From a virus (lineage: Duplodnaviria > Caudoviricetes), in IMG/VR virus record IMGVR_UViG_3300022897_000006, positions 1-42,343 of that record: 42,343 bases of DNA; one strand, written 5' to 3'. Within the stretch, counting starts at the first letter, position 1, and the number at the start of each line of letters is the position of its first letter. The notes under the pieces were generated by a model. That model saw only the letters and a program-made list of their open reading frames with translations, searched no databases and had not been told where the DNA came from. Below are positions 4,864 through 37,131 of this stretch, piece by piece. The position numbers and the translations under genes are program-made.

Positions 4864-5016
4864 CTATCGAGAGGGCCACGGGCTGGGCGTGGCGTGGGTC
4901 GGATTGCGGCCGGGAGTGCTCCAGGCCGGGTCTTGCATGGCCGCCAGGGTGATGACCAGAAGGCCGCCCAGAATGGCGATGATGCCGGAGACGAGGATCA
5001 GGTGGGCTGGTTTCAC
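4864..5016 (-). CDS. Small single-pass membrane protein (50 aa)
   Basis: GTG start overlaps upstream TGA (GTGA); N-terminal TM helix. Confidence 0.6.
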   Translation of the reverse strand: MKPAHLILVSGIIAILGGLLVITLAAMQDPAWSTPGRNPTHATPSPWPSR

Positions 5017-5606
5017 CGGATCATCATCCAGCCGATCAGGCCCACCAGGGCGACGAGCACACCCGAGGACATGACCAGACGCCGGCCCCAGGAGATCACG
5101 GTCACGCGGGCCTGGACGTAGAACGGCATGCCGTCCCGCTGGGCGCGCTCGGCCTTGGCCGCGCTCTTGGTGATCCGCCGCGGGTTCCAGTGGTTCTTGG
5201 CATCGTTGTAGCGCGGCCAGGTGGCGAGAATGACCAGCGTCTCCAGCGGCCGGAGAACCCACTTCCAGCAGAGCCACCACGGGAGCGGGATGACCTTGTA
5301 CCAGATCGGGTCCAGGTCGGACCAGGGCTGGGCGGACGCCGGCCGCGCCCCTTTGGTGACCAGCACGCCGTCCGAGGCGTAGCGCCCGTGGCCGAGGTGC
5401 TGGCGCTGGCGCAGGTAGTAGCTGACGGTCTCGCCCACGTAGGCGGTCTCGCGCCGGAAGGCGTGCCCGTGCTTGCGTGTGCGAACGAGGTAGACGCCCC
5501 CCTTGCGGCGCCGGACCTTGCGGCCCCAGCGCTTCAGCGGCCGGTACGCCACGGCGCCCGCGAGCGTGGCCGTGCCCACGAGGCTGGCCACGATGATCGG
5601 GTCCAT
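5013..5606 (-). CDS. Membrane-anchored GIY-YIG nuclease-fold protein
   Basis: GVYLVR...AYVGET...RQRQH...LETLVI...PRYN motifs; hydrophobic helices at both ends; GGAGG RBS. Confidence 0.75.
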   Translation of the reverse strand: MDPIIVASLVGTATLAGAVAYRPLKRWGRKVRRRKGGVYLVRTRKHGHAFRRETAYVGETVSYYLRQRQHLGHGRYASDGVLVTKGARPASAQPWSDLDPIWYKVIPLPWWLCWKWVLRPLETLVILATWPRYNDAKNHWNPRRITKSAAKAERAQRDGMPFYVQARVTVISWGRRLVMSSGVLVALVGLIGWMMIR

Positions 5607-6213: not shown

Positions 6214-6248
6214 TCACGTCCTGTCCAGGGCATGGCCGAGATCTCTCC

Positions 6249-6267: not shown

Positions 6268-8010
6268 ATGAGCAAGAGCACCCAGCCGTATCACGCCGCG
6301 CCCTATCCCCTGCCCCTGGGCTTCAACGGCCGCCTAGCCATGCCCTATCGGTGGTTCTCTGGCCGCCCCCTCAACGGGCACCGCTACACGGACGCCACCG
6401 GCTTTCACTACGGCACCATGGCCACGGACATCTCCGGCCGCGCGTCCACATACAAGCTGCTGCCCGGCTACAAGCGCTTTCTCTACGCGCGGTTGCCGAT
6501 CATGCTGGCGCCGGCCGTGGCCGTGGAGGGCGTCCTGGACCCGGCCGCGCTCGGCTGGGGCCTGTCCATCGCGGGTGTCCTGGCCGTCCCCAAGGTGGCC
6601 AAGGCCAGGCGTGTCCGGACCTTCCGCCGCGGCGTCATCGAGCCGGTGGCCGCCAGTGTGTCCGCTGTCCTGAAAGAGCGTTACGTGTCCGGGATGGGAC
6701 ACACCTGGGTCACTGTCCCGCTGGACTACCGGGACGACGAGGAGGCCAAGATCGTTGTCCGGCTCCCGATGGCCTGGACAGGCGACGACGGGGACAGGAC
6801 ACGGCTGGCCAAGGTGGTGGCCGAGCGCCTCCAGGTCGAGGACATCACGCCGAGCTGGACACTGTCCGGCGCCGCGCCCCACGTGACCTTCTCCGTCCCG
6901 CCCAAGCCGCCCAGGTTGGTCACCTGGGACAGTGCCGTGGCCGATCTGGCCGCCAGCAAGGACACCGCGCCGATGCTCGGGTACGGCCCCCGCCGCAAGA
7001 TCGAGACGTTTGATCTGAAGCTGGAGGCGCCGCACCTGCTGGTGGCCGGGGGGTCGGGCGCCGGCAAGAGCGAGATCATCGCCGCGATTGTGTCCCAGTT
7101 CATGCGCAAGGGCTACGGCGTGATGGTCCTGGACGCCAAGTTCACCAGCCACATGTGGCTCCGCAAGGTGCCGGGCGTGCTCTACGCCAGCGAATCCGAG
7201 GAGCTGCACGAGGCGTTGATCTGGCTCGACCAGGAGCTACTGCGCCGCGCCCGGTTCGTCGCGATGGGCGGGGACCCGGCCGAGCTGGAGCCGCTGCTGG
7301 CCGTGCTGGAGGAGATGAACGGCGCCAGCAACCGCCTGCGGGCCTACTGGAAGTCGATCAAGGACACGTCGGACCCGATGATGAGCCCGGCCCTGACCGC
7401 GCTTCAGAACCTGGCCGCCATGGGCCGTGAGCTGCGGGTTCACATCGTGCTGGCCGGTCAGAGCCTCACGGCCAAGGCCATCGGCGGCCCCGAGACCAGG
7501 GAGAACTTCGGCGGCCGGATGTTCGGCCGGGCCACGGCGGCCCAGTGGCGCATGCTGGCCCCCCAGATCAAGAAGCCGCCGGCCAAGGCGGGGCCGCCGG
7601 GACGCTGGCACATCGTGGTGGGCGAGGTGGTCCGGGAGCTTCAGGCGCCCTTCTCCGACATGAAAAACGAGGAGGCCCGCTTGATCGAGTTCGCCACCGG
7701 GGGCGCACCATTCCCGGACGTGCCGGAGATGATGGCCGCCTCCCCGGTGGAGGGTGGTGGTGGGGGTGGTGGTCAAATGACAGAGACCCCCAGTTCAGAG
7801 CTACCCCCACCCGAGGGGATCTCGCTCCGCCAGTACGCCGAGGAGGCCGGAATCGATCTCCAGCGCCTGCTGAAGTGGCGTGAGAAGCGCTCCGATTTCC
7901 CCTCCTGGGTGGCGATCGGGGGGCGCAATACCCACCTCTTCGACCGGGACCACCTCAGGGCCTACGTGCGCGAGCGGCTACGGGAGCCGGTCACCGCGGA
8001 CGAGGGCTAG
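6268..8010 (+). CDS. FtsK/SpoIIIE-family DNA translocase, TraB-like (actinomycete plasmid transfer type)
   Basis: N-terminal hydrophobic segments; PHLLVAGGSGAGKS Walker A; LLAVLEEMN Walker B; MGRELRVHIVLAGQ; C-terminal HTH-like domain. Confidence 0.88.
   Translation: MSKSTQPYHAAPYPLPLGFNGRLAMPYRWFSGRPLNGHRYTDATGFHYGTMATDISGRASTYKLLPGYKRFLYARLPIMLAPAVAVEGVLDPAALGWGLSIAGVLAVPKVAKARRVRTFRRGVIEPVAASVSAVLKERYVSGMGHTWVTVPLDYRDDEEAKIVVRLPMAWTGDDGDRTRLAKVVAERLQVEDITPSWTLSGAAPHVTFSVPPKPPRLVTWDSAVADLAASKDTAPMLGYGPRRKIETFDLKLEAPHLLVAGGSGAGKSEIIAAIVSQFMRKGYGVMVLDAKFTSHMWLRKVPGVLYASESEELHEALIWLDQELLRRARFVAMGGDPAELEPLLAVLEEMNGASNRLRAYWKSIKDTSDPMMSPALTALQNLAAMGRELRVHIVLAGQSLTAKAIGGPETRENFGGRMFGRATAAQWRMLAPQIKKPPAKAGPPGRWHIVVGEVVRELQAPFSDMKNEEARLIEFATGGAPFPDVPEMMAASPVEGGGGGGGQMTETPSSELPPPEGISLRQYAEEAGIDLQRLLKWREKRSDFPSWVAIGGRNTHLFDRDHLRAYVRERLREPVTADEG
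6563..6964. repeat. GGACA/TGTCC pentamer array inside the translocase gene
   Basis: 17 copies in ~400 bp by manual count, both orientations. Confidence 0.8.
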
Positions 8011-8016
8011 GCAGAC

Positions 8017-8046
8017 GAAAACCCCAGGCCGAGGCCTGGGGTTTTC
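8017..8046. terminator. Bidirectional intrinsic terminator
   Basis: GAAAACCCCAGGCC-GA-GGCCTGGGGTTTTC between convergent genes. Confidence 0.9.
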
Positions 8047-8063: not shown

Positions 8064-8873
8064 CTAGCCCAGGTCCTCGGCGCCGGCCGGGGCGCCCGAG
8101 GTGGGCTGACCGTTCAGCGCGGCCCGGATGCGCCGGATGGTCCGGGTGGACACCTCGTAGTGTCCCGCCAGCAGCTCATCCACCTGGCCGGGGGTCAGGA
8201 CATCGGCGTCCTGGGCGGCCAGGATCAGGCTCTCGATCTCGGCCCGCCCGTCCTTGGCCTTGGCCACCCGTGTCCGCTGGGGAAGCTTGCCGGGGACGAC
8301 CGGGACAGCGGGCGTGCTGTCCATCGGGCCGAGCCGGTTCTCCAGGTTGGCCAGCCAGTCCGTGTCCGCCTGGGTCAAGGTGTCCGGGACCTGGGACAGA
8401 TCCTGGGTGTTGTCCAGGTTGACTGCTGGGCCGCTGTCCGGCAGGGACACGGCCACGTACTTGGCCACCTCGGGGCGGACGATGTCCACTGTCCGCGAGG
8501 CCAGCAGCATGACCGTGCAGCCGAGCATCACACCGTCGATGGCCAGCGGTCCGGTGATCTGGGCGATGCCGGGCTCGCCAGCCTTGATCATGAGCGCGTG
8601 AAGGTTCACGTACGACGTGATGGCCGTGGGCACGGTAACCGTGAGCAGCGCTCCTTGTCCGACGCGAGCCAGGAAGCCGTGGACGCCACGGTTGCGGACC
8701 AGCACCTCAACGGCGATGAACAGGAACACCGGCCAGATGACGGCCATGGGGATGCGTAGCACGATGTTGACCGTGGTCTCGGTCAGGCAGGCGTTGGCCA
8801 CGTTGCCCGCCACGCTGGCCAACACGCCGGCCACCAGTCCGGCCCTCGCCCACTTCGGTCCGTTTTCGTTCAT
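8064..8873 (-). CDS. DUF2637-like multi-pass membrane protein with C-terminal HTH (AICE/plasmid spread-protein type)
   Basis: Four TM segments with SYVNLHAL...GEP...GPLAIDG signature; C-terminal LAGHYEVSTRTIRRIR HTH; ATG 8873 after GAGAGCG. Confidence 0.8.
   Translation of the reverse strand: MNENGPKWARAGLVAGVLASVAGNVANACLTETTVNIVLRIPMAVIWPVFLFIAVEVLVRNRGVHGFLARVGQGALLTVTVPTAITSYVNLHALMIKAGEPGIAQITGPLAIDGVMLGCTVMLLASRTVDIVRPEVAKYVAVSLPDSGPAVNLDNTQDLSQVPDTLTQADTDWLANLENRLGPMDSTPAVPVVPGKLPQRTRVAKAKDGRAEIESLILAAQDADVLTPGQVDELLAGHYEVSTRTIRRIRAALNGQPTSGAPAGAEDLG
8148..8494. repeat. GGACA/TGTCC pentamer array inside the DUF2637 gene
   Basis: 14 copies in ~350 bp by manual count. Confidence 0.8.
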
Positions 8874-15121: not shown

Positions 15122-15420
15122 TTCTGGGCCTCCAGTTCTTTCGCCTTGGCTAGCAGTCCCTCAGCTTCGGCGCGGTACGCAGCAGCAACCTCGGCACGTT
15201 GCTCGCGAGCCTCAACGGCACGGTTCACCTCGGCCAGCGTGGCGAGCGGGTGATGGCCGTCCGGGATGCAGACGCCGATCTCGTCATCGATCACCGTGAC
15301 GCCCGCCTCGGTCTGGAGCCACTCGTCCGCCAGGTAGTGGTCCCCGGCGCGCTGGAGCTGTCCGTCCGCGTAGACCATGGTCCAGTCTCCGGATCGCCAA
15401 AATTGGATGTCCTTTTTCAT
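15118..15420 (-). CDS. Hypothetical protein
   Basis: ATGA-coupled to helicase stop. Confidence 0.75.
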   Translation of the reverse strand: MKKDIQFWRSGDWTMVYADGQLQRAGDHYLADEWLQTEAGVTVIDDEIGVCIPDGHHPLATLAEVNRAVEAREQRAEVAAAYRAEAEGLLAKAKELEAQK

Positions 15421-17216
15421 GCCTTGCTCCTCGCTCTGATCTTCTCCACCACGGGGTCGATGACCCGCGTGGCTTGGACCTTATCCATGAGGTCTGACAG
15501 TTTTCCGGCCTTGCCCCCGGCCTTGGTGGCGAGGATCTTCTCCAGCTCCACCGACAACCCCAGGCGCCGCGCGTGCTCTTGCATCTCGGGCGACGGGACC
15601 GCCTTGCGCCAGGCGCGGCCCTTGTCCGCGAGCATGGCGCCGATGTCCCCACCCAGCTCCTGGGCGAGATCCTCGGCCAGCGCCATGGCCAGCTCCAGGT
15701 CCGGGGCCGTGGCGGCCATGTAGGTCCGGAACGCCCCGCGGCCCTCGCCCGGGGTAGCCGGCCGCCGCGCCCAGACCTTCCACCCGCGCTCGTGGACACC
15801 CTCGTCCGGTTGCTCCACCACGAACACGTAGCCCTGCGAGCGCTTGGCCGTGGGCAGGAACGGCACTCCGGCCTCCGTGAACTTCCAGGCCTTGCTGGAC
15901 GCCTGGACTATCGCGTCCCAGCGCTCAATCTTGACCGGCCCTCGGTACTCCACCAGCTCCTCGGCGTCCAGCTCTCGGCCGAGGTCCCACTCGTCCTCCA
16001 TCTGGGCCAGGCTCTTACCGTCCTGGCCGCCGGCCAGTGGCCGGTCCGAGAGGTCCGCGTACGTGGCCAGCTGGGTGGTCGTGTCCGCGACGCACAGCAG
16101 GATGCACTGCTGCTCTTCGCGCGGGGGAGCCTCGGCCGCCAGCCACGGTCGGAGCCCGCGGCCGACCATCTGGATGAACAGGGGGGCGCTCTTGGTGGGC
16201 CTGGCCACGATGACGCACATCGTCCGCGGCGAGTCCCAGCCCTCGGTCAGGACCATGGCGTTGCACACGACCGTGGTCACGCCGGCCTCGTAGCGCTCCA
16301 GGATGGCCCGGCGCTCGGACAGCGGCACCTTGTCCGAGATGACCTCGGCCTTGATCCCCTCGGCGTTGAAGGCGTCCGCGAACCGGTGGGCGCTGGCCAC
16401 CAGGGGAGCGAACAGGACCGTGGACGGGTACTCCACGAGATTGCCCAGGAGCCTGTCCACGGCCTTGTCCAGCCACGCCTGAACGACCAACTCGGGGGCC
16501 AGGGACTCGGCCATCTGGGTGTCCAGTGCCTCGCGGCCCTCGGCCAGCGTCACGTCCGGGATGGTGATCGTGTAGGGCACGAGATCGATCAGGTGGCCCT
16601 TCCGGATGGCCCAGGAGAGCGACCGGGTGAACGGCAGCGCTTGCCAGACCTGGCCGAGAGCCGCGCCGTCCGTGCGCGCCAGCGTGGCCGTGAGGCCGAG
16701 CACGGGGACACTGGGCTGGGTCCAGCCCGTATTGCGACAGTCCCAGCACCCTTCCGGGTCGCGGTTCGCACATGTGCAGTCCGGCAGGCCCCCGAAGCGC
16801 TCCAGAATGGCCCGGTAACTGGCCGCCGTGGCGTGGTGGCACTCGTCCACGATGATCAGGCCCACGTCCGTGATCTGGTCCATGCGACCGGGCTGGGTCA
16901 GGGTCGCCACGCTGGCCACCACGATGTCCGCGTCCACCTCGTTGGCCGTGGCCTTGACCACGCCGATGGACCAGCGGCCCTTGGTCACGGCGGCCATCGT
17001 CTTGACCGTCTGCCGGACAAGCTCATCCGTGTGGACGAGGAAGAGGACACGGCCGTTCATGGCCGCCCCCAGCCACTCGTCCGCCGCGCCGGCCGCGGTC
17101 ACGGTCTTGCCCAGTCCCGTGGCCATCTCGATGGCCACCCGGTTCACGTCCTCGCCAGCTAGGGTGTCCCAGAAAGCGGCCACTGCCTGGCGCTGGTAAT
17201 CACGCAAGATCGACAT
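15417..17216 (-). CDS. Superfamily 2 DExH helicase (ResIII plus helicase C-terminal type)
   Basis: LRDYQ Q-motif, ATGLGKT, DECHH, TAT, LTEGWDSP, QMVGRGLR; start MSILRDYQ at 17216 (TGATG overlap). Confidence 0.92.
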   Translation of the reverse strand: MSILRDYQRQAVAAFWDTLAGEDVNRVAIEMATGLGKTVTAAGAADEWLGAAMNGRVLFLVHTDELVRQTVKTMAAVTKGRWSIGVVKATANEVDADIVVASVATLTQPGRMDQITDVGLIIVDECHHATAASYRAILERFGGLPDCTCANRDPEGCWDCRNTGWTQPSVPVLGLTATLARTDGAALGQVWQALPFTRSLSWAIRKGHLIDLVPYTITIPDVTLAEGREALDTQMAESLAPELVVQAWLDKAVDRLLGNLVEYPSTVLFAPLVASAHRFADAFNAEGIKAEVISDKVPLSERRAILERYEAGVTTVVCNAMVLTEGWDSPRTMCVIVARPTKSAPLFIQMVGRGLRPWLAAEAPPREEQQCILLCVADTTTQLATYADLSDRPLAGGQDGKSLAQMEDEWDLGRELDAEELVEYRGPVKIERWDAIVQASSKAWKFTEAGVPFLPTAKRSQGYVFVVEQPDEGVHERGWKVWARRPATPGEGRGAFRTYMAATAPDLELAMALAEDLAQELGGDIGAMLADKGRAWRKAVPSPEMQEHARRLGLSVELEKILATKAGGKAGKLSDLMDKVQATRVIDPVVEKIRARSKA

Positions 17217-23021: not shown

Positions 23022-23174
23022 TCGATCTGGGGGTTACGGGGGTTTCGGGGGTTTTATTTGGCGGAGGCCCGACCAGTATTCGGACTATCATCACATTTTG
23101 GAGACACACCCGCGTAGAAGTGGTGGCAGGGGGACCAAATAAAACCCCCGAAACCCCCGTAACCCCCAGATCGA
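23022..23174. repeat. Perfect 40-bp inverted repeat with 9-bp iterons; candidate replication origin
   Basis: TCGATCTGGGGGTTACGGGGGTTTCGGGGGTTTTATTTGG at 23022-23061 and its reverse complement at 23135-23174; directly after primase-helicase. Confidence 0.85.
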
Positions 23175-28739: not shown

Positions 28740-30346
28740 GCGCGGGGAGCGAGATTGTACGGTTCGCCCGCGAACTTTCTAGGTGGACACCCGAGCCTGA
28801 CCCCACGGAGAAAGCCCGGGAAATCTTCGTTCAGCGCATGGGAGATCCCACCTTTCAGGGCTGGGTGGACTCGTTCCTGACCTTCCAGGGCCAGATCTAC
28901 CAGCCCAGCCACACGACCACCTACGCCGGCCAGAAGGCCGAGCCGGTCCTGGACACTTTTCTGGGCTACGTCTCCGGCGCCTACAAGAAGAACGGCGTCA
29001 TCTTCGCCACCTCCATGGCGCGGGCCCGGCTCTTTAGCGAGGCCCGCTTCAAGTTCCGCAAGCTTGGCTCCACCGGGGGCGGTAACGACCTGTTCGGCAA
29101 CCAGTCGCTGAAGCCGCTGGAGACCCCCTGGCCGGGCGGGACCACCCAGTCACTGCTCATGCGGGCAGAGCAGGACGTGACCGCTGGTGGAACGTTCTTC
29201 CTGGCCGAGTCCGAGCGTGGGGACCGCCTTCTCCGGCGCCGGCCGGACTGGATGGAATTCATCCTGGACGCGCCCCCCGATGAGGCGGTGGAAGCCAACA
29301 TCGTGGGCTATAAGTACACCGTGGGCGGGCCTTGGGCTGGCGGCAAGAGCAAGCTCTATCTCCTGGACGAGTGCATCCACTGGGCGCCGATCCCGGACCC
29401 GGACGCGATGTATCGCGGCATGTCCTGGTTGACTCCGATCATCACGGAGCTTCAGGGCGACACCATGGCCACCCAGCACAAGCTCTCATTCTTCGAGAAT
29501 GCGGCCACGCCGAATCTGTCCGTCAGTCTCAAGGAGAACATCGGCCCGGACGCTTTCGCCGAGTTTGTCCGCAAGATGCAGGAGGCCACCCGCGGACCCG
29601 AGAAGGCGTACGAAACGCTCTATACGGGCGGCGGGGCGGACGTTCGCGTGGTCGGCGCCAACATGCAACAGCTTTCGTTCGCCGAGACCATCGGTCACGG
29701 GGAGACCCGGATCGCTGCGGCCGGGGGCGTACCTCCGATCATCATCGGCCTGTCCGAGGGCCTGGCCGCCGCCACGTACTCCAACTACGGGCAGGCGCGG
29801 CGCGCCTTCGGGGACACCTGGGGGAGCAATCAGTGGCGCTCCTTCTGTGCGGCCGTGGCGCCCCTGGTCGAAGTGCCTGCGGACGCCGAGCTCTGGTATG
29901 ACACCCGGGATATCCCGTTCCTGCGCGAGGACCAGAAAGACCTGGCCGAGGTGGCCTCGGTCAACGCCGGCACACTGTCCACGCTGCTGGCCTCCGGCTG
30001 GACTCCGGAGAGCGCCCTGGCAGCCATGCTCGCCGAGGACTTCTCGCTCCTGGTCCACTCGGGCCTGATGAGTGTTCAGCTCCAGGCTCCGGGCGCCCAG
30101 GACGCCGAGACCGGCCCCACGCCGGCCGATGACGCCGCGGTCTTCTCCAGCAAGGTGGGTGACGTGGTCGCCCTGGCCGGGTCCTTCGATCCGGACTCGG
30201 CCGTGGCCGCGGCGGACGCCCAGGATCTCTCGCTCTTGGTGGTCCCCGAGCCTGAGGTGGACCCGAGCGTGGACCCGGAGACCGGCCTTCCTATCGATCC
30301 AGCAGCAGCAGACCCGGCCGTGGCCGAGGAGGGGACGCCAGGATGA
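28736..30346 (+). CDS. Portal protein (HK97-like)
   Basis: YRGMSWL...FFENAATP...RIAAAGGVPPIIIG...ATYSN; follows terminase. Confidence 0.93.
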   Translation: MSAGSEIVRFARELSRWTPEPDPTEKAREIFVQRMGDPTFQGWVDSFLTFQGQIYQPSHTTTYAGQKAEPVLDTFLGYVSGAYKKNGVIFATSMARARLFSEARFKFRKLGSTGGGNDLFGNQSLKPLETPWPGGTTQSLLMRAEQDVTAGGTFFLAESERGDRLLRRRPDWMEFILDAPPDEAVEANIVGYKYTVGGPWAGGKSKLYLLDECIHWAPIPDPDAMYRGMSWLTPIITELQGDTMATQHKLSFFENAATPNLSVSLKENIGPDAFAEFVRKMQEATRGPEKAYETLYTGGGADVRVVGANMQQLSFAETIGHGETRIAAAGGVPPIIIGLSEGLAAATYSNYGQARRAFGDTWGSNQWRSFCAAVAPLVEVPADAELWYDTRDIPFLREDQKDLAEVASVNAGTLSTLLASGWTPESALAAMLAEDFSLLVHSGLMSVQLQAPGAQDAETGPTPADDAAVFSSKVGDVVALAGSFDPDSAVAAADAQDLSLLVVPEPEVDPSVDPETGLPIDPAAADPAVAEEGTPG

Positions 30347-30915
30347 CCGACGTTACGCGCGCATTCACTGAGGCTCTCCATCCCCGGGACGCCGGCAAGT
30401 TCGCGGTCGCCCCCGGCTCGGGCAACAAGACCGTCAAGCCCAACACCCAACCCGCCGGCAAGGGCGGCAAGGGTAAGGGGAAAGGCAAGGGGGGCGGGGC
30501 CGCGGGCAAGAAGGCGCCAGCCGGGTCTCTGTCCTTCGACGGTAAGCGCGGCGCCGGGTACGGCACGCCGGGTGGGGACAAGCGGGTCCACTCGCTCCAG
30601 CAGGCCCTCAACCGGTTGGGGTTCGGCGATGCGGCCAACGCCAAACTAAAGGATGACGGCAAGCTGGGGCCCAAGACCACGGCCGCGATCAAGAAGGTTC
30701 AGCGGGCCATGGGGTTGAAGGCGGACGGCGTGGTGACCCCAGCGCTGCTCTCCAAGATCACCAAGGCCAAGAGCGCCAAGGACCTGAAGCCGCTCGCCAA
30801 GAAGGTGGCGGCCGCCAAGAAGATGCCGGACCGCGTGAAATCCGCCACGCCCACTCAGCGGACGGGCAAGAGCCCGGCCAAGAAGGCCGCCCCCGTTTCG
30901 TACAGCAGGAGCTGA
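30343..30915 (+). CDS. Lys-rich protein with peptidoglycan-binding domain, in head module
   Basis: VHSLQQALNRLG...DGKLGPKTTAAIKKVQRAMGLKADGVV; N-terminal HPRDAGKF. Confidence 0.8.
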   Translation: MTDVTRAFTEALHPRDAGKFAVAPGSGNKTVKPNTQPAGKGGKGKGKGKGGGAAGKKAPAGSLSFDGKRGAGYGTPGGDKRVHSLQQALNRLGFGDAANAKLKDDGKLGPKTTAAIKKVQRAMGLKADGVVTPALLSKITKAKSAKDLKPLAKKVAAAKKMPDRVKSATPTQRTGKSPAKKAAPVSYSRS

Positions 30916-33707: not shown

Positions 33708-34574
33708 ATGAGCGAGCAAGGGGATACCGTGGACAACGAGGCGCCGGCCTATACGCCTGGCACCGTTGTCCCTGCGATCATCGACGGACAGGACTGGGCC
33801 GCGTGCTTCGGCCTGTCCTGGGCGGACATGCTGCTCCATGACCAGGCCGTGTCCGGCAAGATCATCCGGCCGGGCGGGACATACTTCCGTCGGGTGGCCG
33901 GAACCATGGGCGTGGCCGCCGCTCGCAACCAGAACGTGGCCAGCTTCCTGGCCACGGACGCCGAGTGGCTGTTCATGGTGGACACGGACATGGGCTTCGC
34001 CGCGGACACCGTGGACAGGCTCCTGGCCAGCGCCGTGGCCAACAATGTGGGTGTCCTGGGTGCGCTGGCCTTCAGCCAGAGCCGGGACGCCGATGTGGTC
34101 CCGGGCGACTTCTACGCCCAGCGCTTCCGCATCCAGCCCACCATCTACTCCTACGCCCGCATCGAGTCCACGGGCGAGGTGGGTTTCCGGCCGGTCACCA
34201 AGTACAAGCGGGACGCCTTCCAACCCGTGGCGGGCACTGGGGCGGCCTGTGTGCTCATCCACCGGGATGTCCTGACCGATGTGGGGCCCGAGCCGTTCAT
34301 GCCCATCACGGACCCCAAGGGGGGCGGCAACGGCACGCCCCGCACCTTCAGCGAGGATCTCTCGTTCTGTATCCGGGTCCAGGGCGCCGGCCTCGAGATT
34401 GGCGTGGACACGTCGATCAAGACCACCCACTACAAGGGCGGGATCTTCCTGGACGAGACGACGTTCGCCATGCAACAGGAGACCTTGATCCAGGCCCGCG
34501 GGCACGCCATCGCGCGCCAGGTCGAGGCGTACACGCGCGCCGGCCTTGTCATCCCCAGGGGAGCATCGCTGTGA
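33708..34574 (+). CDS. Glycosyltransferase, GT-A / family 2-like
   Basis: AARN...WLFMVDTD...GAACVLIHR...SEDLSFC...H. Confidence 0.88.
   Translation: MSEQGDTVDNEAPAYTPGTVVPAIIDGQDWAACFGLSWADMLLHDQAVSGKIIRPGGTYFRRVAGTMGVAAARNQNVASFLATDAEWLFMVDTDMGFAADTVDRLLASAVANNVGVLGALAFSQSRDADVVPGDFYAQRFRIQPTIYSYARIESTGEVGFRPVTKYKRDAFQPVAGTGAACVLIHRDVLTDVGPEPFMPITDPKGGGNGTPRTFSEDLSFCIRVQGAGLEIGVDTSIKTTHYKGGIFLDETTFAMQQETLIQARGHAIARQVEAYTRAGLVIPRGASL
33731..34056. repeat. GGACA/TGTCC pentamer array inside the glycosyltransferase gene
   Basis: 12 copies in ~330 bp by manual count. Confidence 0.6.
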
Positions 34575-34702
34575 GCGTTCCCCCGTATTGCATCCGCCCA
34601 TGGCCGCGCGGCTGGCGTTGCACCCGAGAGTGCGACCACGCCGGCCCGTGCGCTCTCACCCCCCGCTGGTGGAATCTCAAGGGAAAGCGGGCCATGCGAT
34701 GA
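34571..34702 (+). CDS. Small Cys/His peptide (43 aa)
   Basis: GTGA and ATGA overlaps; CTRECDHAGPC. Confidence 0.55.
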   Translation: MSVPPYCIRPWPRGWRCTRECDHAGPCALTPRWWNLKGKRAMR

Positions 34703-35313
34703 CCGCTGTTGCGATCGGCGCCAGCTACGCCACGGTTGCCCAGCTCAAGTACCGGCTGGGCATCCCGGACTCGGACACGAGCAAGGACGCCGATCTCCAG
34801 GACAAGCTGAACAGCGCGTCGTCCGACGTCAACCTCTACACGGGCCGCCAGTTCGGCCGGGACGAGGTGGTCAGCGAGCGGACGTTCGCTCCTGGCCGGA
34901 CCGGGGTGGACACCCACGATTTCTGGACATCAACCGGCCTGGCCATTGTCCCGTACCTCGGACAGACCGCTGGGACACCCTGGACCGTGGCCGGGCTGGA
35001 GCTCTTCCCCACGGACGGGATCTGGGAGCAACAGCCCGGCTGGCCGTTCTGGCGGATCTGCTACGGCTGGTCCATGTCCGCCTTCTACTCGGCGTCCAAG
35101 GTGAAGGTCACGGCCAAGTGGGGATGGGCCGCCGTCCCGACCCCGGTCATCACGGCCACGCTGCTGTTGGCCGCGATGGACAACAAGGCCGGGGACGCCC
35201 CGTTCGGCGTGGCCGGGTTCGGGGACTACGCGGTCCGGGTGAAGAGCAACCCCATGGCCGAGGAGAAGCTCCGCCCGTACGTCAAGGACCCGATCAAGGT
35301 CGCGGGCTCGTGA
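34699..35313 (+). CDS. Head-to-tail adaptor
   Basis: YATVAQLK...ASSDVNLYTGRQF...VTAKWGWAAVP. Confidence 0.85.
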   Translation: MTAVAIGASYATVAQLKYRLGIPDSDTSKDADLQDKLNSASSDVNLYTGRQFGRDEVVSERTFAPGRTGVDTHDFWTSTGLAIVPYLGQTAGTPWTVAGLELFPTDGIWEQQPGWPFWRICYGWSMSAFYSASKVKVTAKWGWAAVPTPVITATLLLAAMDNKAGDAPFGVAGFGDYAVRVKSNPMAEEKLRPYVKDPIKVAGS

Positions 35314-35492
35314 TGGCCACCTTGACGGAACAGGTGGAAGAGCTGATCCAGATGGCTCACAAGATGGCCGAGGACACGGGCGTCCGTCAGCGCGTAGAGG
35401 CCGTTCGGGCACCGCAGGGTTTCTGGTACTACCAGACCCGGCAAACCGTCGCCTGGCCGCGCCGGCTTATGCGAATGGTCGCTGGCTCGTGA
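35313..35492 (+). CDS. Hypothetical protein (59 aa)
   Basis: TGATG and GTGA coupling. Confidence 0.6.
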   Translation: MATLTEQVEELIQMAHKMAEDTGVRQRVEAVRAPQGFWYYQTRQTVAWPRRLMRMVAGS

Positions 35493-35947
35493 GTGCACCG
35501 GCCGCTTACGACCTGAATGCGGTCTTCGACGCCCTGGCCGCCACCTGGAACAACCTGACCACCGGGGACGCCTACGGCGCCGTGGCCGAGAAGCTCACGT
35601 GCTACGCCGAGGTGGTTGGCCAGGTCAACGTCCCGGCGGTCGTCCTGGAGCTGGACGACCTGGACTGGGACCTGAACATGGCCGATGGGGCGGACGCCTT
35701 CACCATCGTGGCCACGATCCTGATCAAGACCCAGGAGACCAAGGGCGCCCAGCGGGCGCTCCGGCGCTTCCTGTCCCGGTCCCCGGGCGCTGGGGTGGCC
35801 AAGCTCAAAAAGGCACTCAAGGACAACCAGACGTTGGGTGGCCTCGTGTCCTACGCGGACATGACCACTGTCCGCCGGGTAGGCCTGATCAACTACGATG
35901 CCGTGGACTACCAGGGCGCCGAGCTAGTGATTGAGGTGGTCTCGTAA
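35489..35947 (+). CDS. Putative tail terminator
   Basis: Position; PAVVLE...QTLGGLV...YQGAELVIEV pattern. Confidence 0.65.
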   Translation: MSAPAAYDLNAVFDALAATWNNLTTGDAYGAVAEKLTCYAEVVGQVNVPAVVLELDDLDWDLNMADGADAFTIVATILIKTQETKGAQRALRRFLSRSPGAGVAKLKKALKDNQTLGGLVSYADMTTVRRVGLINYDAVDYQGAELVIEVVS

Positions 35948-36690
35948 TGACCTTCCTGCCCGGCTACGGCGTCAAGGTGCTGGCCAATGAGGTGTCCGTG
36001 TCCACCCTCGTGTCCGGCGTGGCCATGACCCACTCTCGGGGGGTGTCCGAGGTGACCACCGGCGGTCAGGTCATTGCGACCGCGGGCGCCTCGTTCGTAC
36101 CCGGCCTGATGTCCGGCACCATGGCGCTGCGGGGCCCGCAGGACAGCGTGGGCGCCACCGGGCTGCACGCCGAGATCGCCTCGGCCATCGGCGTGCACAG
36201 CGCGCTGCTGCTGACCGCGCTCCCGGGTGGGGATGCCCTCGGCGCGCCGGCCCTGTTCGCCATGGGTGACCCCACGGACTGGGGCATAGACGCATCCGTG
36301 TCCGACGCTGTGGGCTTCACGATGTCCGCCGCCGCAGACGAGTCCGTGGAGATGGGCTGGGTCCTGCACTCGCTGGCGGCCGAGACTGCGGACGGCAACT
36401 CGGCCAGCATCGACCGCGGCGCCGCGCCGAGCACGCCCACCACCCATGGGGGCGCTTTCGGTCTCCACGTCACGGCCTTCTCCGGCCTGACCTCGGCCGC
36501 ACTGAAGGTCCAGCACTCTCCGGACAACAGCGCGTGGGCCGACCTGGCCTCGTTCGTGTCCGTGACCGCCGTGGGATTCCAGCTGGTGAAACTGGCGCCC
36601 ACGGTCACGGTCAACCGTTATCTCCGTTGCGTCACCGACGTGACGGGTACCGGCTCGGTCACCTTCCTGATGACCGCGGCTCCCCGCTAG
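35947..36690 (+). CDS. Tail tube-like protein with extra C-terminal domain
   Basis: Shares SEVT..G...P.L and DA.VSD.V motifs with the next gene. Confidence 0.6.
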   Translation: MTFLPGYGVKVLANEVSVSTLVSGVAMTHSRGVSEVTTGGQVIATAGASFVPGLMSGTMALRGPQDSVGATGLHAEIASAIGVHSALLLTALPGGDALGAPALFAMGDPTDWGIDASVSDAVGFTMSAAADESVEMGWVLHSLAAETADGNSASIDRGAAPSTPTTHGGAFGLHVTAFSGLTSAALKVQHSPDNSAWADLASFVSVTAVGFQLVKLAPTVTVNRYLRCVTDVTGTGSVTFLMTAAPR

Positions 36691-36705
36691 GAAAGGTCCG
36701 CACTC

Positions 36706-37131
36706 ATGTCTTTCGTCCACGGTAAGGACGCTGTCTTCTCGCTGGACGATGGCGGGGGCGTGCTGCGAAACATCGCCATCTACCTCAACGGCGTGTCCGG
36801 CCTCCCGGGCGCCCGCGCGCTGTCCGAGGTGACCGCCTTCGGAGACCAGGGCGTCAAGAGCATCCCCTCCCTGGCCAATGTCCAGTTCTCCCTCACTGGC
36901 CACTTCGACGCGACCGCCACCACGGGCTCCTTCACCGTGCTCAACAGTCTGCGGACCGCGACTGCCACAGCGACCGCCCAATACGGTCCCGCTGGCAGCA
37001 CGGTCGGCAACGTCAAGATGACGGCCGAATGCTGGATGACCGAGTTGTCCGTGGACGCCACGGTCTCGGACCGGGTGCCCATCGCGGCCAGCTTCCAGGT
37101 GGACGGCGTTCCGACCGTGGGTGTGTTCTAG
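36706..37131 (+). CDS. Major tail (tube) protein
   Basis: MSFVHGKD...SEVTAFGD...SFQVDG; size and position. Confidence 0.75.
   Translation: MSFVHGKDAVFSLDDGGGVLRNIAIYLNGVSGLPGARALSEVTAFGDQGVKSIPSLANVQFSLTGHFDATATTGSFTVLNSLRTATATATAQYGPAGSTVGNVKMTAECWMTELSVDATVSDRVPIAASFQVDGVPTVGVF

What the first reader, a model, noticed from the sequence alone, without database searches (positions are those of the whole stretch)
6563..6964. Cryptic GGACA/TGTCC array written into the translocase coding sequence
17 copies by manual count (6563, 6576, 6612, 6659, 6666, 6686, 6697, 6714, 6756, 6776, 6792, 6797, 6840, 6857, 6863, 6927, 6960), about 40 per kb, against 5 in the 1.46-kb capsid gene. They occur on both strands and in different frames, include the palindrome GGACACTGTCC, and use codons unusual for this genome (ACA, AGG, GGA, GTT, ACT, AGT). 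This points to selection on DNA rather than protein. TraB proteins are known to load on short clustered repeats (clt/TRS). I infer a clt- or centromere-like cis site hidden in the gene.
Basis: partly seen in the sequence, partly recalled or inferred. Interest (0 to 1): 0.85.

Follow-up and report, generated by a model that had tools for sequence, protein, structure and literature searches.

The report
Hidden tether sites inside phage genes
A soil phage writes dense clusters of a five-letter DNA word into its DNA-pump gene and the gene next door, and these are likely landing sites for the neighbour's membrane-anchored DNA-binding protein, which would hold the phage genome at the membrane so it can be inherited or pumped through the host's filaments.

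Summary
There are 17 GGACA/TGTCC copies at 6563-6964, against 2.9 expected from synonymous codons; 17 of 20 positions where the protein allows the word carry it. It is one of a pair: a second array (14 copies) lies in the convergent DUF2637-like membrane+HTH gene 8064-8873. The window is an apparently complete 42-kb actinobacterial phage with no detectable integrase. Among 33 related tra genes, GGACA (19) or GGCCA (8) is the top enriched word. Site density is kept while positions turn over, and both arrays change word together (rho 0.88, n=29). The likely reader is the DUF2637 protein's HTH, not TraB. The word inside tra follows DUF2637 relatedness rather than Tra's. Two phages with no detectable Tra keep arrays in their DUF2637 gene. 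Among 78 mostly Streptomyces tra loci, arrays occur in 10 of 11 with such a gene and 4 of 67 without. Best model (inferred): a membrane-tethering, centromere-like site serving inheritance and Tra-driven spread of a plasmid-like prophage. No binding or function has been tested.

The parts
6563..6964 (.). Array 1: 17 GGACA/TGTCC sites plus 12 GGCCA/TGGCC matches (GGMCA), both strands, inside tra codons ~99-233
8148..8494 (.). Array 2: 14 GGACA/TGTCC sites in the linker and HTH coding part of the DUF2637-like gene
6268..8010 (+). Tra/TraB-like FtsK-SpoIIIE translocase, 580 aa: N-terminal hydrophobic helices, FtsK motor and a small C-terminal helix-helix-wing domain. Nearest annotated relatives are Tra proteins of actinomycete linear plasmids (pRL2-11 type, about 32%)
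   Evidence: Pfam PF01580 above cut-off; fold search top hit FtsK motor, E 1e-15; plasmid tblastn
8064..8873 (-). DUF2637-like (Spd-like) membrane protein, 269 aa: hydrophobic N-terminal domain, variable linker, C-terminal three-helix HTH (third helix about residues 243-254). Likely reader of the arrays
   Evidence: PF10935 E 0.0085, below cut-off; homologues carry PF10935; HTH_23 in 22 of 37 family members but not in the window's own copy; model
8017..8046 (.). 14-bp perfect inverted repeat between the convergent genes, likely a bidirectional terminator, lying between the two arrays
33731..36561 (.). Diffuse third zone of GGACA enrichment across the glycosyltransferase-like, head-tail adaptor, tail terminator and major tail genes (14, 9, 5 and 10 sites vs 3.4, 3.1, 1.9 and 2.5 expected)
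15417..17213 (-). Helicase gene with weaker GGACA enrichment (14 vs 5.7)
   Evidence: also seen in G002 and G160

Best explanation
The GGACA cluster is one of two arrays of a short DNA word (GG[A/C]CA) kept inside protein-coding genes by selection on the DNA, and it is most likely bound by the C-terminal helix-turn-helix of the neighbouring DUF2637-like membrane protein, which would tether the phage genome to the cell membrane like a centromere. SHOWN: the arrays, their excess over synonymous nulls, conservation of density with turnover of positions, concerted change of the word in both arrays, and co-occurrence of arrays with DUF2637-HTH genes, also where no Tra is detected. INFERRED: many HTH domains of a membrane-embedded oligomer each read one pentamer in either orientation, so avidity comes from about 15-30 weak sites per 0.5 kb. 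The invariant Arg248 would read the TG step and residue 244 the GG pair, by analogy with RacA. The phage would persist as a non-integrated plasmid-like prophage in a filamentous actinomycete. The tether would serve inheritance and, where Tra is present, would present the DNA to the translocase for passage across septa or into recipients. Odds by step: DNA-level site array 0.93; DUF2637 HTH as reader about 0.75; tether rather than gene regulation as the main job about 0.7 of that.
For: (1) Nulls. (2) Conservation: GGACA is the top 5-mer in 19 of 33 related tra genes and GGCCA in 8. 95 distinct site positions occur in 15 aligned genes, and the 14 relatives among them share 2-8 of the window's 17. 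(3) The word mix of the tra array and the downstream array correlate, rho 0.88, n=29. (4) The word mix of the array inside tra follows the DUF2637 protein (membrane part 0.38, HTH 0.29, helix 0.32) and not Tra (ATPase 0.03, C-terminus 0.14); the two proteins' distances are uncorrelated (-0.05), n=26. (5) G159 and G160, both rated 100% complete, show no Tra or FtsK, yet their DUF2637 genes hold arrays: TGGCCA 13 vs 4.6 and GGACA 23 vs 7.3. G160's helicase and prim-pol are 73-74% identical to the window's. (6) Among 78 mostly Streptomyces tra loci, two-strand arrays occur in 10 of 11 with a DUF2637-like gene and 4 of 67 without; in L207 gene and array both lie downstream of tra. The word is element-specific (CGGAC/GGACA, GGAAC, GCAAC, GCTAC, CTGCA) and runs on into non-coding DNA. 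(7) Loci with Lys at the position of Arg244 show little GGCCA excess (9 loci, median about 3 per kb) against Arg loci (25, median about 20), p 1.5e-4 uncorrected. (8) The best PDB sequence match of the HTH profile is RacA (E 0.001, 20 residues), whose two base-contacting residues, Lys15 and Arg19 (PMC4914108), have the same spacing as 244/248. (9) No tyrosine integrase, serine recombinase or ParA was found in G000, G001, G002 or G004. SpdB2 of pSVH1 is a four-helix membrane protein that binds DNA and TraB and is needed for spreading (PMC4447253).
Against: No binding data. In the clade where the DUF2637 gene lies upstream of tra (L005, L008, L017, L018, L019, L032), that gene has little or no array (for example 1 vs 1.0 in L018). 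The second array instead stays 0.2-0.9 kb behind the tra stop, in an unrelated gene (11 vs 2.8), so array position there is tied to tra. Mantel values are modest, and the membrane part scores as well as the HTH; single Tra C-terminal columns also reach high eta-squared in an uncorrected scan. The Lys/Arg link rests on only 3 changes on the tree plus two loci left out of it, and 5 Arg loci in that tree also lack a GGCCA excess. SpdB2 was reported to bind DNA non-specifically. 0 of 5 SCP2-type DUF2637 plasmid loci carry a two-strand array. G159 has an integrase, so arrays are not confined to plasmid-like phages. L242 has the gene and no array. The RacA match is short and the folds differ; the fold search gave nothing at E <= 0.001. 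Lysogeny, host and plasmid state are not shown.
Confidence: 0.52

Rival explanations
1. The arrays are a clt: the C-terminal domain of Tra itself recognises the pentamers and loads the translocase.
For: Tra keeps a conserved small C-terminal helical domain. In Tra-bearing phages the two arrays flank the ATPase-coding end of tra even when gene order changes. TraB/TraA bind short repeats next to or overlapping tra in pSVH1 and pWTY27 (PMC3583192).
Against: Arrays occur in phages with no detectable Tra. The word does not follow Tra: L010 and L027 have nearly the same Tra C-terminal helices but use GGACA and GGCCA; Mantel 0.14 and 0.03. 63 of 67 tra loci without a DUF2637-like gene lack arrays. 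Described clt repeats are mostly 7-9-bp direct repeats; here orientation is mixed, with no conserved polarity.
Confidence: 0.14
2. The DUF2637 HTH does bind the arrays, but mainly as an autoregulatory roadblock or silencer that caps expression of itself and of the potentially toxic tra gene (a Kor-like role; these phages show no GntR-type TraR among the genes annotated here).
For: The arrays lie in the transcribed parts of exactly these two genes, and single sites lie in both promoter regions (6222, 8945). TraR represses toxic TraB in plasmids (PMC4447253). In-gene binding sites of RepAM were proposed to be regulatory (PMC2440964).
Against: The arrays are hundreds of bases downstream of the promoters. 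They also occur in unrelated genes and in late structural genes on the far side of the genome. A membrane anchor is not needed for repression.
Confidence: 0.17
3. The word is read by a host factor or another phage protein (a nucleoid protein, a modification system, or a packaging or replication factor), and the link to DUF2637 reflects shared ancestry or shared hosts.
For: Genome-wide GGACA is about twice the codon expectation (150 vs 68 in 34 genes). Some GGACA-only phages are poor in GGCCA genome-wide, which host restriction could cause. The host is unknown.
Against: Elements within one host genus (Streptomyces) use different words, which points to an element-encoded reader. Flanks do not fit a DnaA box (no preference next to the pentamer; DnaA consensus recalled).
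Confidence: 0.12
4. The clusters are by-products of low-complexity protein linkers or local mutation bias, with no DNA-level function.
For: Array 2 lies in a variable linker, and the amino-acid sequence is enriched in residues compatible with the word.
Against: Array 1 lies in a folded part of Tra (pLDDT 80-92) and uses both strands, three phases and rare codons. It passes synonymous nulls, moves into unrelated genes, and extends into non-coding DNA in plasmids. True protein repeats, as in SCP2, give single-strand clusters (21 to 0).
Confidence: 0.03

Closest known systems
TraB with clt/TRS of Streptomyces plasmids (pSVH1, pIJ101, pJV1, pWTY27)
   Same: FtsK-like translocase with clustered short repeats in or beside its gene; the pWTY27 clt overlaps traA by 16 bp; pIJ101 has 5-bp repeats (PMC3583192, passages).
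   Different: Here there are two 0.35-0.4-kb arrays of a 5-mer in both orientations, deep inside coding sequence. The word follows the neighbouring membrane protein rather than Tra, and persists in phages with no detectable Tra.
SpdB2 of pSVH1 (plasmid-spreading membrane protein)
   Same: Membrane protein with about four helices encoded beside Tra; SpdB2 binds DNA and TraB, is needed for spreading, and has putative homologues on some actinophages (PMC4447253, passages).
   Different: SpdB2 binding was reported as non-specific, with no site array. Homology of the window protein to SpdB2 itself could not be tested (the pSVH1 record was not found).
SpdA2/sps of pIJ101 and RepAM of pMEA300
   Same: An actinomycete element protein binds sites inside its own coding sequence; for SpdA2 this affects segregational stability (PMC4170104, part 1 of 6; PMC2440964, passages).
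   Different: Those are soluble proteins with one palindrome or 8-bp repeats.
RacA/ram of Bacillus subtilis
   Same: An HTH protein binds clustered GC-rich sites ending in TG/CA and anchors DNA at the envelope; the anchor speeds SpoIIIE translocation (PMC4914108, passages; PMC6593407, abstract). Best PDB sequence hit of the HTH profile.
   Different: RacA is a MerR-like winged HTH with 14-bp palindromic sites. The protein here has a three-helix HTH and its own membrane domain. An analogy, not a family link.
Tra/DUF2637 modules of actinomycete linear plasmids (pRL2, pFRL6, pPR2) and Streptomyces plasmid-phages such as pZL12
   Same: Same gene pair; pRL2 carries the same GGACA word in its DUF2637 gene (12 vs 5.7). 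Conjugative plasmid-phages are known (mentioned in PMC4170104; pZL12 paper recalled, not read).
   Different: Here the module sits in a large uncultured siphophage-like family (167 Tra homologues, many on 41-45-kb contigs) with no close relative among 50,697 phage records (1 partial Tra hit, 0 DUF2637 hits).

Membership tests
FtsK/SpoIIIE-type Tra translocase | FtsK_SpoIIIE ATPase domain with Walker A and N-terminal membrane helices | tested here: met
   PF01580 35.3 bits over cut-off 24; fold search; model helices 67-135
clt/TRS locus | Cluster of short repeats in or next to tra | tested here: met
clt/TRS locus | Direct (same-orientation) repeats, typically 7-9 bp | tested here: not met
   9 minus and 8 plus copies, no flank consensus, no conserved polarity or longer unit
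clt/TRS locus | Specificity set by the Tra C-terminal domain | tested here: inconclusive
   Indirect tests are against it: Mantel 0.14, and arrays in phages with no detectable Tra. Binding itself is untested
clt/TRS locus | Required in cis for transfer | not testable with these tools
   needs mating assays
DUF2637 (PF10935) | Match over Pfam's gathering score | tested here: inconclusive
   Window protein 16.4 bits, cut-off 22.8; 5 of its 41 other homologues carry PF10935; hence 'DUF2637-like'
SpdB2 | Sequence homology to pSVH1 SpdB2 | not testable with these tools
   record not found
ParABS-type plasmid partition system | ParA-family NTPase | tested here: not met
   PF13614 absent in 5 of 5 phage records; ParB and other partition NTPase families were not searched
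RacA/ram anchor | MerR-like winged HTH and 14-bp palindromic site | tested here: not met
   three-helix model without a wing; 5-mer sites; only a 20-residue HTH match
Phage-plasmid (plasmid prophage) | Virion genes plus plasmid functions, no integrase | tested here: met
   terminase, portal, capsid and tail genes; prim-pol; Tra and DUF2637-like genes; no PF00589 or PF07508
Phage-plasmid (plasmid prophage) | Stable extrachromosomal lysogeny | not testable with these tools
   no isolate; no repressor identified; none of the 3 Tra hits in 401 actinomycete genomes was examined for phage genes

The most novel reading that the evidence does not exclude
A widespread, undescribed segregation and transfer code in actinomycete phages and linear plasmids. 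An integral-membrane HTH protein acts as a motor-less kinetochore on a dispersed pentamer centromere written through coding DNA, and reader and word co-evolve (GGACA, TGGCCA, GGAGC, GGAAC, GCAAC, GCTAC, CTGCA), giving each element its own address. In a family of over a hundred soil phages it feeds a conjugative FtsK pump, letting a phage genome spread cell to cell without making virions.
Probability: 0.35. Interest if true: 0.85.

Novelty: new variant of a known kind. Interest (0 to 1): 0.63.

Why it matters
How Spd proteins pick out their own element's DNA during intramycelial spread is an open question; SpdB2 binding was reported as non-specific, and no clt for this linear-plasmid Tra type turned up in my searches. 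This finding names a candidate reader, a candidate word for each element and a candidate specificity residue, and pRL2-type plasmids make them testable in Streptomyces lividans. It also points to a large uncultured phage family that would combine virions with conjugative DNA pumping. And it is a clear case of protein sequence being bent to carry DNA sites.

Tried and rejected
Helical phasing or a preferred dimer spacing: pooled spacings show only codon periodicity. Conserved polarity: the window has 2 of 10 vs 8 of 10 plus-strand sites in the two halves of tra, but pooled over 17 genes it is 85 of 173 vs 102 of 173. A longer consensus or tandem unit: none. DnaA box and sigma-70 -35 decoy readings: flanks and the word switches do not fit; one promoter-like -35 hexamer at 6222-6227 does contain the word. 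PDB sequence search with the Tra C-terminal domain: nothing meaningful. Fold search with the HTH model: only weak homeodomain/GntR-like rows. Micro-evolution test from other runs: no variants in the arrays; no RNA holder listed. GGAGC arrays in the Ala-244 phages: supported in L237 (21 vs 10.9, max 21) but not significant in L236 (20 vs 15.8). The four arrays without a detected DUF2637 gene (L166, L169, L184, L185) could not be tied to one. The two Tra relatives and one partial hit in 401 actinomycete genomes show no GGACA or TGGCCA array. A Tra-DUF2637 complex prediction was not obtained, so that contact is open. Literature: nine searches listed no paper describing such arrays; 'DUF2637' occurs in only 2 papers (listing seen). 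Most subscription papers (Vogelmann 2011, Tiffert 2007, the pZL12 and pRL2 papers) were not read, and no supplements were opened.

Full report
Context. The 42,343-base window (67.6% GC) is a tailed-phage genome with terminase, portal, protease, capsid, tail, helicases and a prim-pol gene. Its ends overlap by about 167 bases with one mismatch, so it is probably a complete circularly permuted assembly, although IMG/VR classes it as linear. Capsid relatives are Mycobacterium and Gordonia phages at about 40%, and terminase relatives lie on actinomycete plasmid records. The host is not known; a filamentous actinomycete is inferred from the Tra module. No tyrosine integrase, serine recombinase or ParA was found in it or in G001, G002, G004, and no tyrosine integrase in G003, G005, G160, G163.

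Observation. All 17 sites are real and exact. Synonymous nulls give 2.9 and 3.7, with maxima of 8 and 10 in 5000 draws. 17 of 20 positions where the protein permits the word carry it, against 97 of 526 elsewhere. Such positions are 2.5 times denser than background, and site codons are often rare ones. A second array of 14 lies at 8148-8494 in the convergent gene, and weaker enrichment covers 33.7-36.7 kb and the helicase gene. GGCCA is co-enriched in array 1 (12 of 15 possible), so the word is best written GG[A/C]CA. It has no flank preference.

The two genes. 6268-8010 is an FtsK-type translocase. Its nearest annotated relatives are Tra proteins of actinomycete linear plasmids, about 32% identical (82 plasmid records); only 1 of 50,697 phage records matches, and only in part. 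167 homologues were found, many on 41-45-kb contigs (53 aligned). 8064-8873 is a DUF2637-like membrane protein (below the Pfam cut-off itself) ending in a three-helix HTH.

Conservation. In 33 tra genes from viral and metagenome contigs (the window included; some are near-duplicates), the most over-represented 5-mer against synonymous shuffles is GGACA in 19, GGCCA in 8 and another word in 6. Positions turn over: there are 95 distinct positions in 15 genes, and the 14 relatives share 2-8 of the window's 17. Most loci show two arrays, one in tra and one 0.1-1.1 kb behind its stop; L005, L017 and L043 are weak, and L246, L252 and L255 have little inside tra. The GGACA:GGCCA mix of the two arrays correlates at rho 0.88 (n=29).

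Who reads it. Four lines favour the DUF2637 HTH. First, the mix of the array inside tra follows DUF2637 distances (0.29-0.38), not Tra's own (0.03 ATPase, 0.14 C-terminus), and the two proteins are reassorted (n=26). Second, G159 and G160 have no detectable Tra (the Pfam search alone also missed G163's Tra, the alignment search found it) yet carry arrays in their DUF2637 genes. Third, among 78 genome loci fetched for Tra, 10 of 11 with a DUF2637-like gene have a two-strand array, against 4 of 67 without. Caveats for that count: L158 and L164 are duplicates, kin are not independent, and some search seeds came from array-bearing loci. The words there are element-specific and extend into intergenic DNA. 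Fourth, the residue at window position 244, second of the third helix, is linked to the word: of 38 loci, 4 were dropped (L236 and L237 with another word, L242 with no array, L042 truncated), and 9 Lys loci show little GGCCA excess against 25 Arg loci (p 1.5e-4). On a tree this is only 3 changes plus two loci not placed, so it is suggestive. The HTH profile's best PDB hit is RacA (E 0.001), where Lys15 and Arg19 are the base-contacting residues and Arg19 reads TG/CA steps (PMC4914108, passages). Their equivalence to 244 and the invariant 248 is my inference from the alignment and an assumed tag offset.

Results against. In the clade with the DUF2637 gene upstream, that gene has little or no array, and the second array remains behind tra in an unrelated gene whose window homologue (5013-5606) has one site. 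Tra therefore seems to set where arrays lie even if it does not set the word. Five SCP2-type DUF2637 loci have no two-strand array. SpdB2 was reported to bind DNA non-specifically (PMC4447253, passages; PMC4170104, part 1 of 6). G159 encodes an integrase. Correlations are modest and cannot exclude a linked third factor.

Mechanism. I commit to a tether. A membrane oligomer binds many weak pentamers with avidity and fixes the non-integrated phage genome at the envelope, aiding inheritance and positioning it for the Tra pump. The precedents are RacA, whose anchor speeds SpoIIIE (PMC6593407, abstract), and SpdA2, which binds inside its own gene and affects stability. Autoregulation by the same reader (0.17), a true Tra-read clt (0.14), a host or third factor (0.12) and a protein by-product (0.03) are the rivals.

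Known and new. It works like clt/Spd and centromere systems, but fails the clt test of direct repeats and the ParABS test of a ParA. Nine literature searches listed nothing on such arrays. PMC3583192, PMC3218068 and PMC2440964 were seen as passages. Key subscription papers and all supplements were not seen and could mention these repeats. Verdict: a real DNA-level feature, a new variant of a known kind, interest 0.63.

Noticed in passing
window 23022-23174: Perfect 40-bp inverted repeat with a 73-nt spacer and internal 9-bp G-rich units just after the prim-pol gene; likely the replication origin (pWTY27 RepA binds a long inverted repeat). Relatives have their own short-word clusters that may be equivalents.
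   Followed up: partly
window 6194, 8900, 9632, 9973, 10758, 23237, 23705: Recurrent 12-bp intergenic motif CTAGACTATAGC (11 matches with up to 2 mismatches vs 0.57 expected); read on the other strand it contains a TATAGT -10-like hexamer ahead of small genes, so likely a phage promoter or operator.
   Followed up: partly
window 5013-5606: Conserved gene of no known family that travels with tra in relatives, on either side; in one clade it carries the second array.
   Followed up: partly
L021, L023, L026, L028, L034, L039, L006 (tra codons about 220-390): In these relatives array 1 is shifted into the ATPase-coding region, showing that even the conserved motor sequence can carry it.
   Followed up: no
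L036 tra gene: Uses TGACA/GACAA besides GGACA: a further word variant; its DUF2637 gene is not on the contig.
   Followed up: no
G160 about 3.6-4.4 kb and 26.4-27.6 kb: A phage with no detectable Tra has extra GGACA arrays near its head genes and in the helicase gene, echoing the window's secondary zones.
   Followed up: partly
L169, L184, L185 (400-1300): Strong two-strand CGCAC/GCACC arrays 2.5-3 kb upstream of tra with no DUF2637-like gene detected inside the locus.
   Followed up: partly
window 35947-37131: Two adjacent genes both match major tail protein families; a glycosyltransferase-like gene (33708-34574) and a peptidoglycan-binding-like protein (30343-30915) sit within the structural operon.
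   Followed up: no
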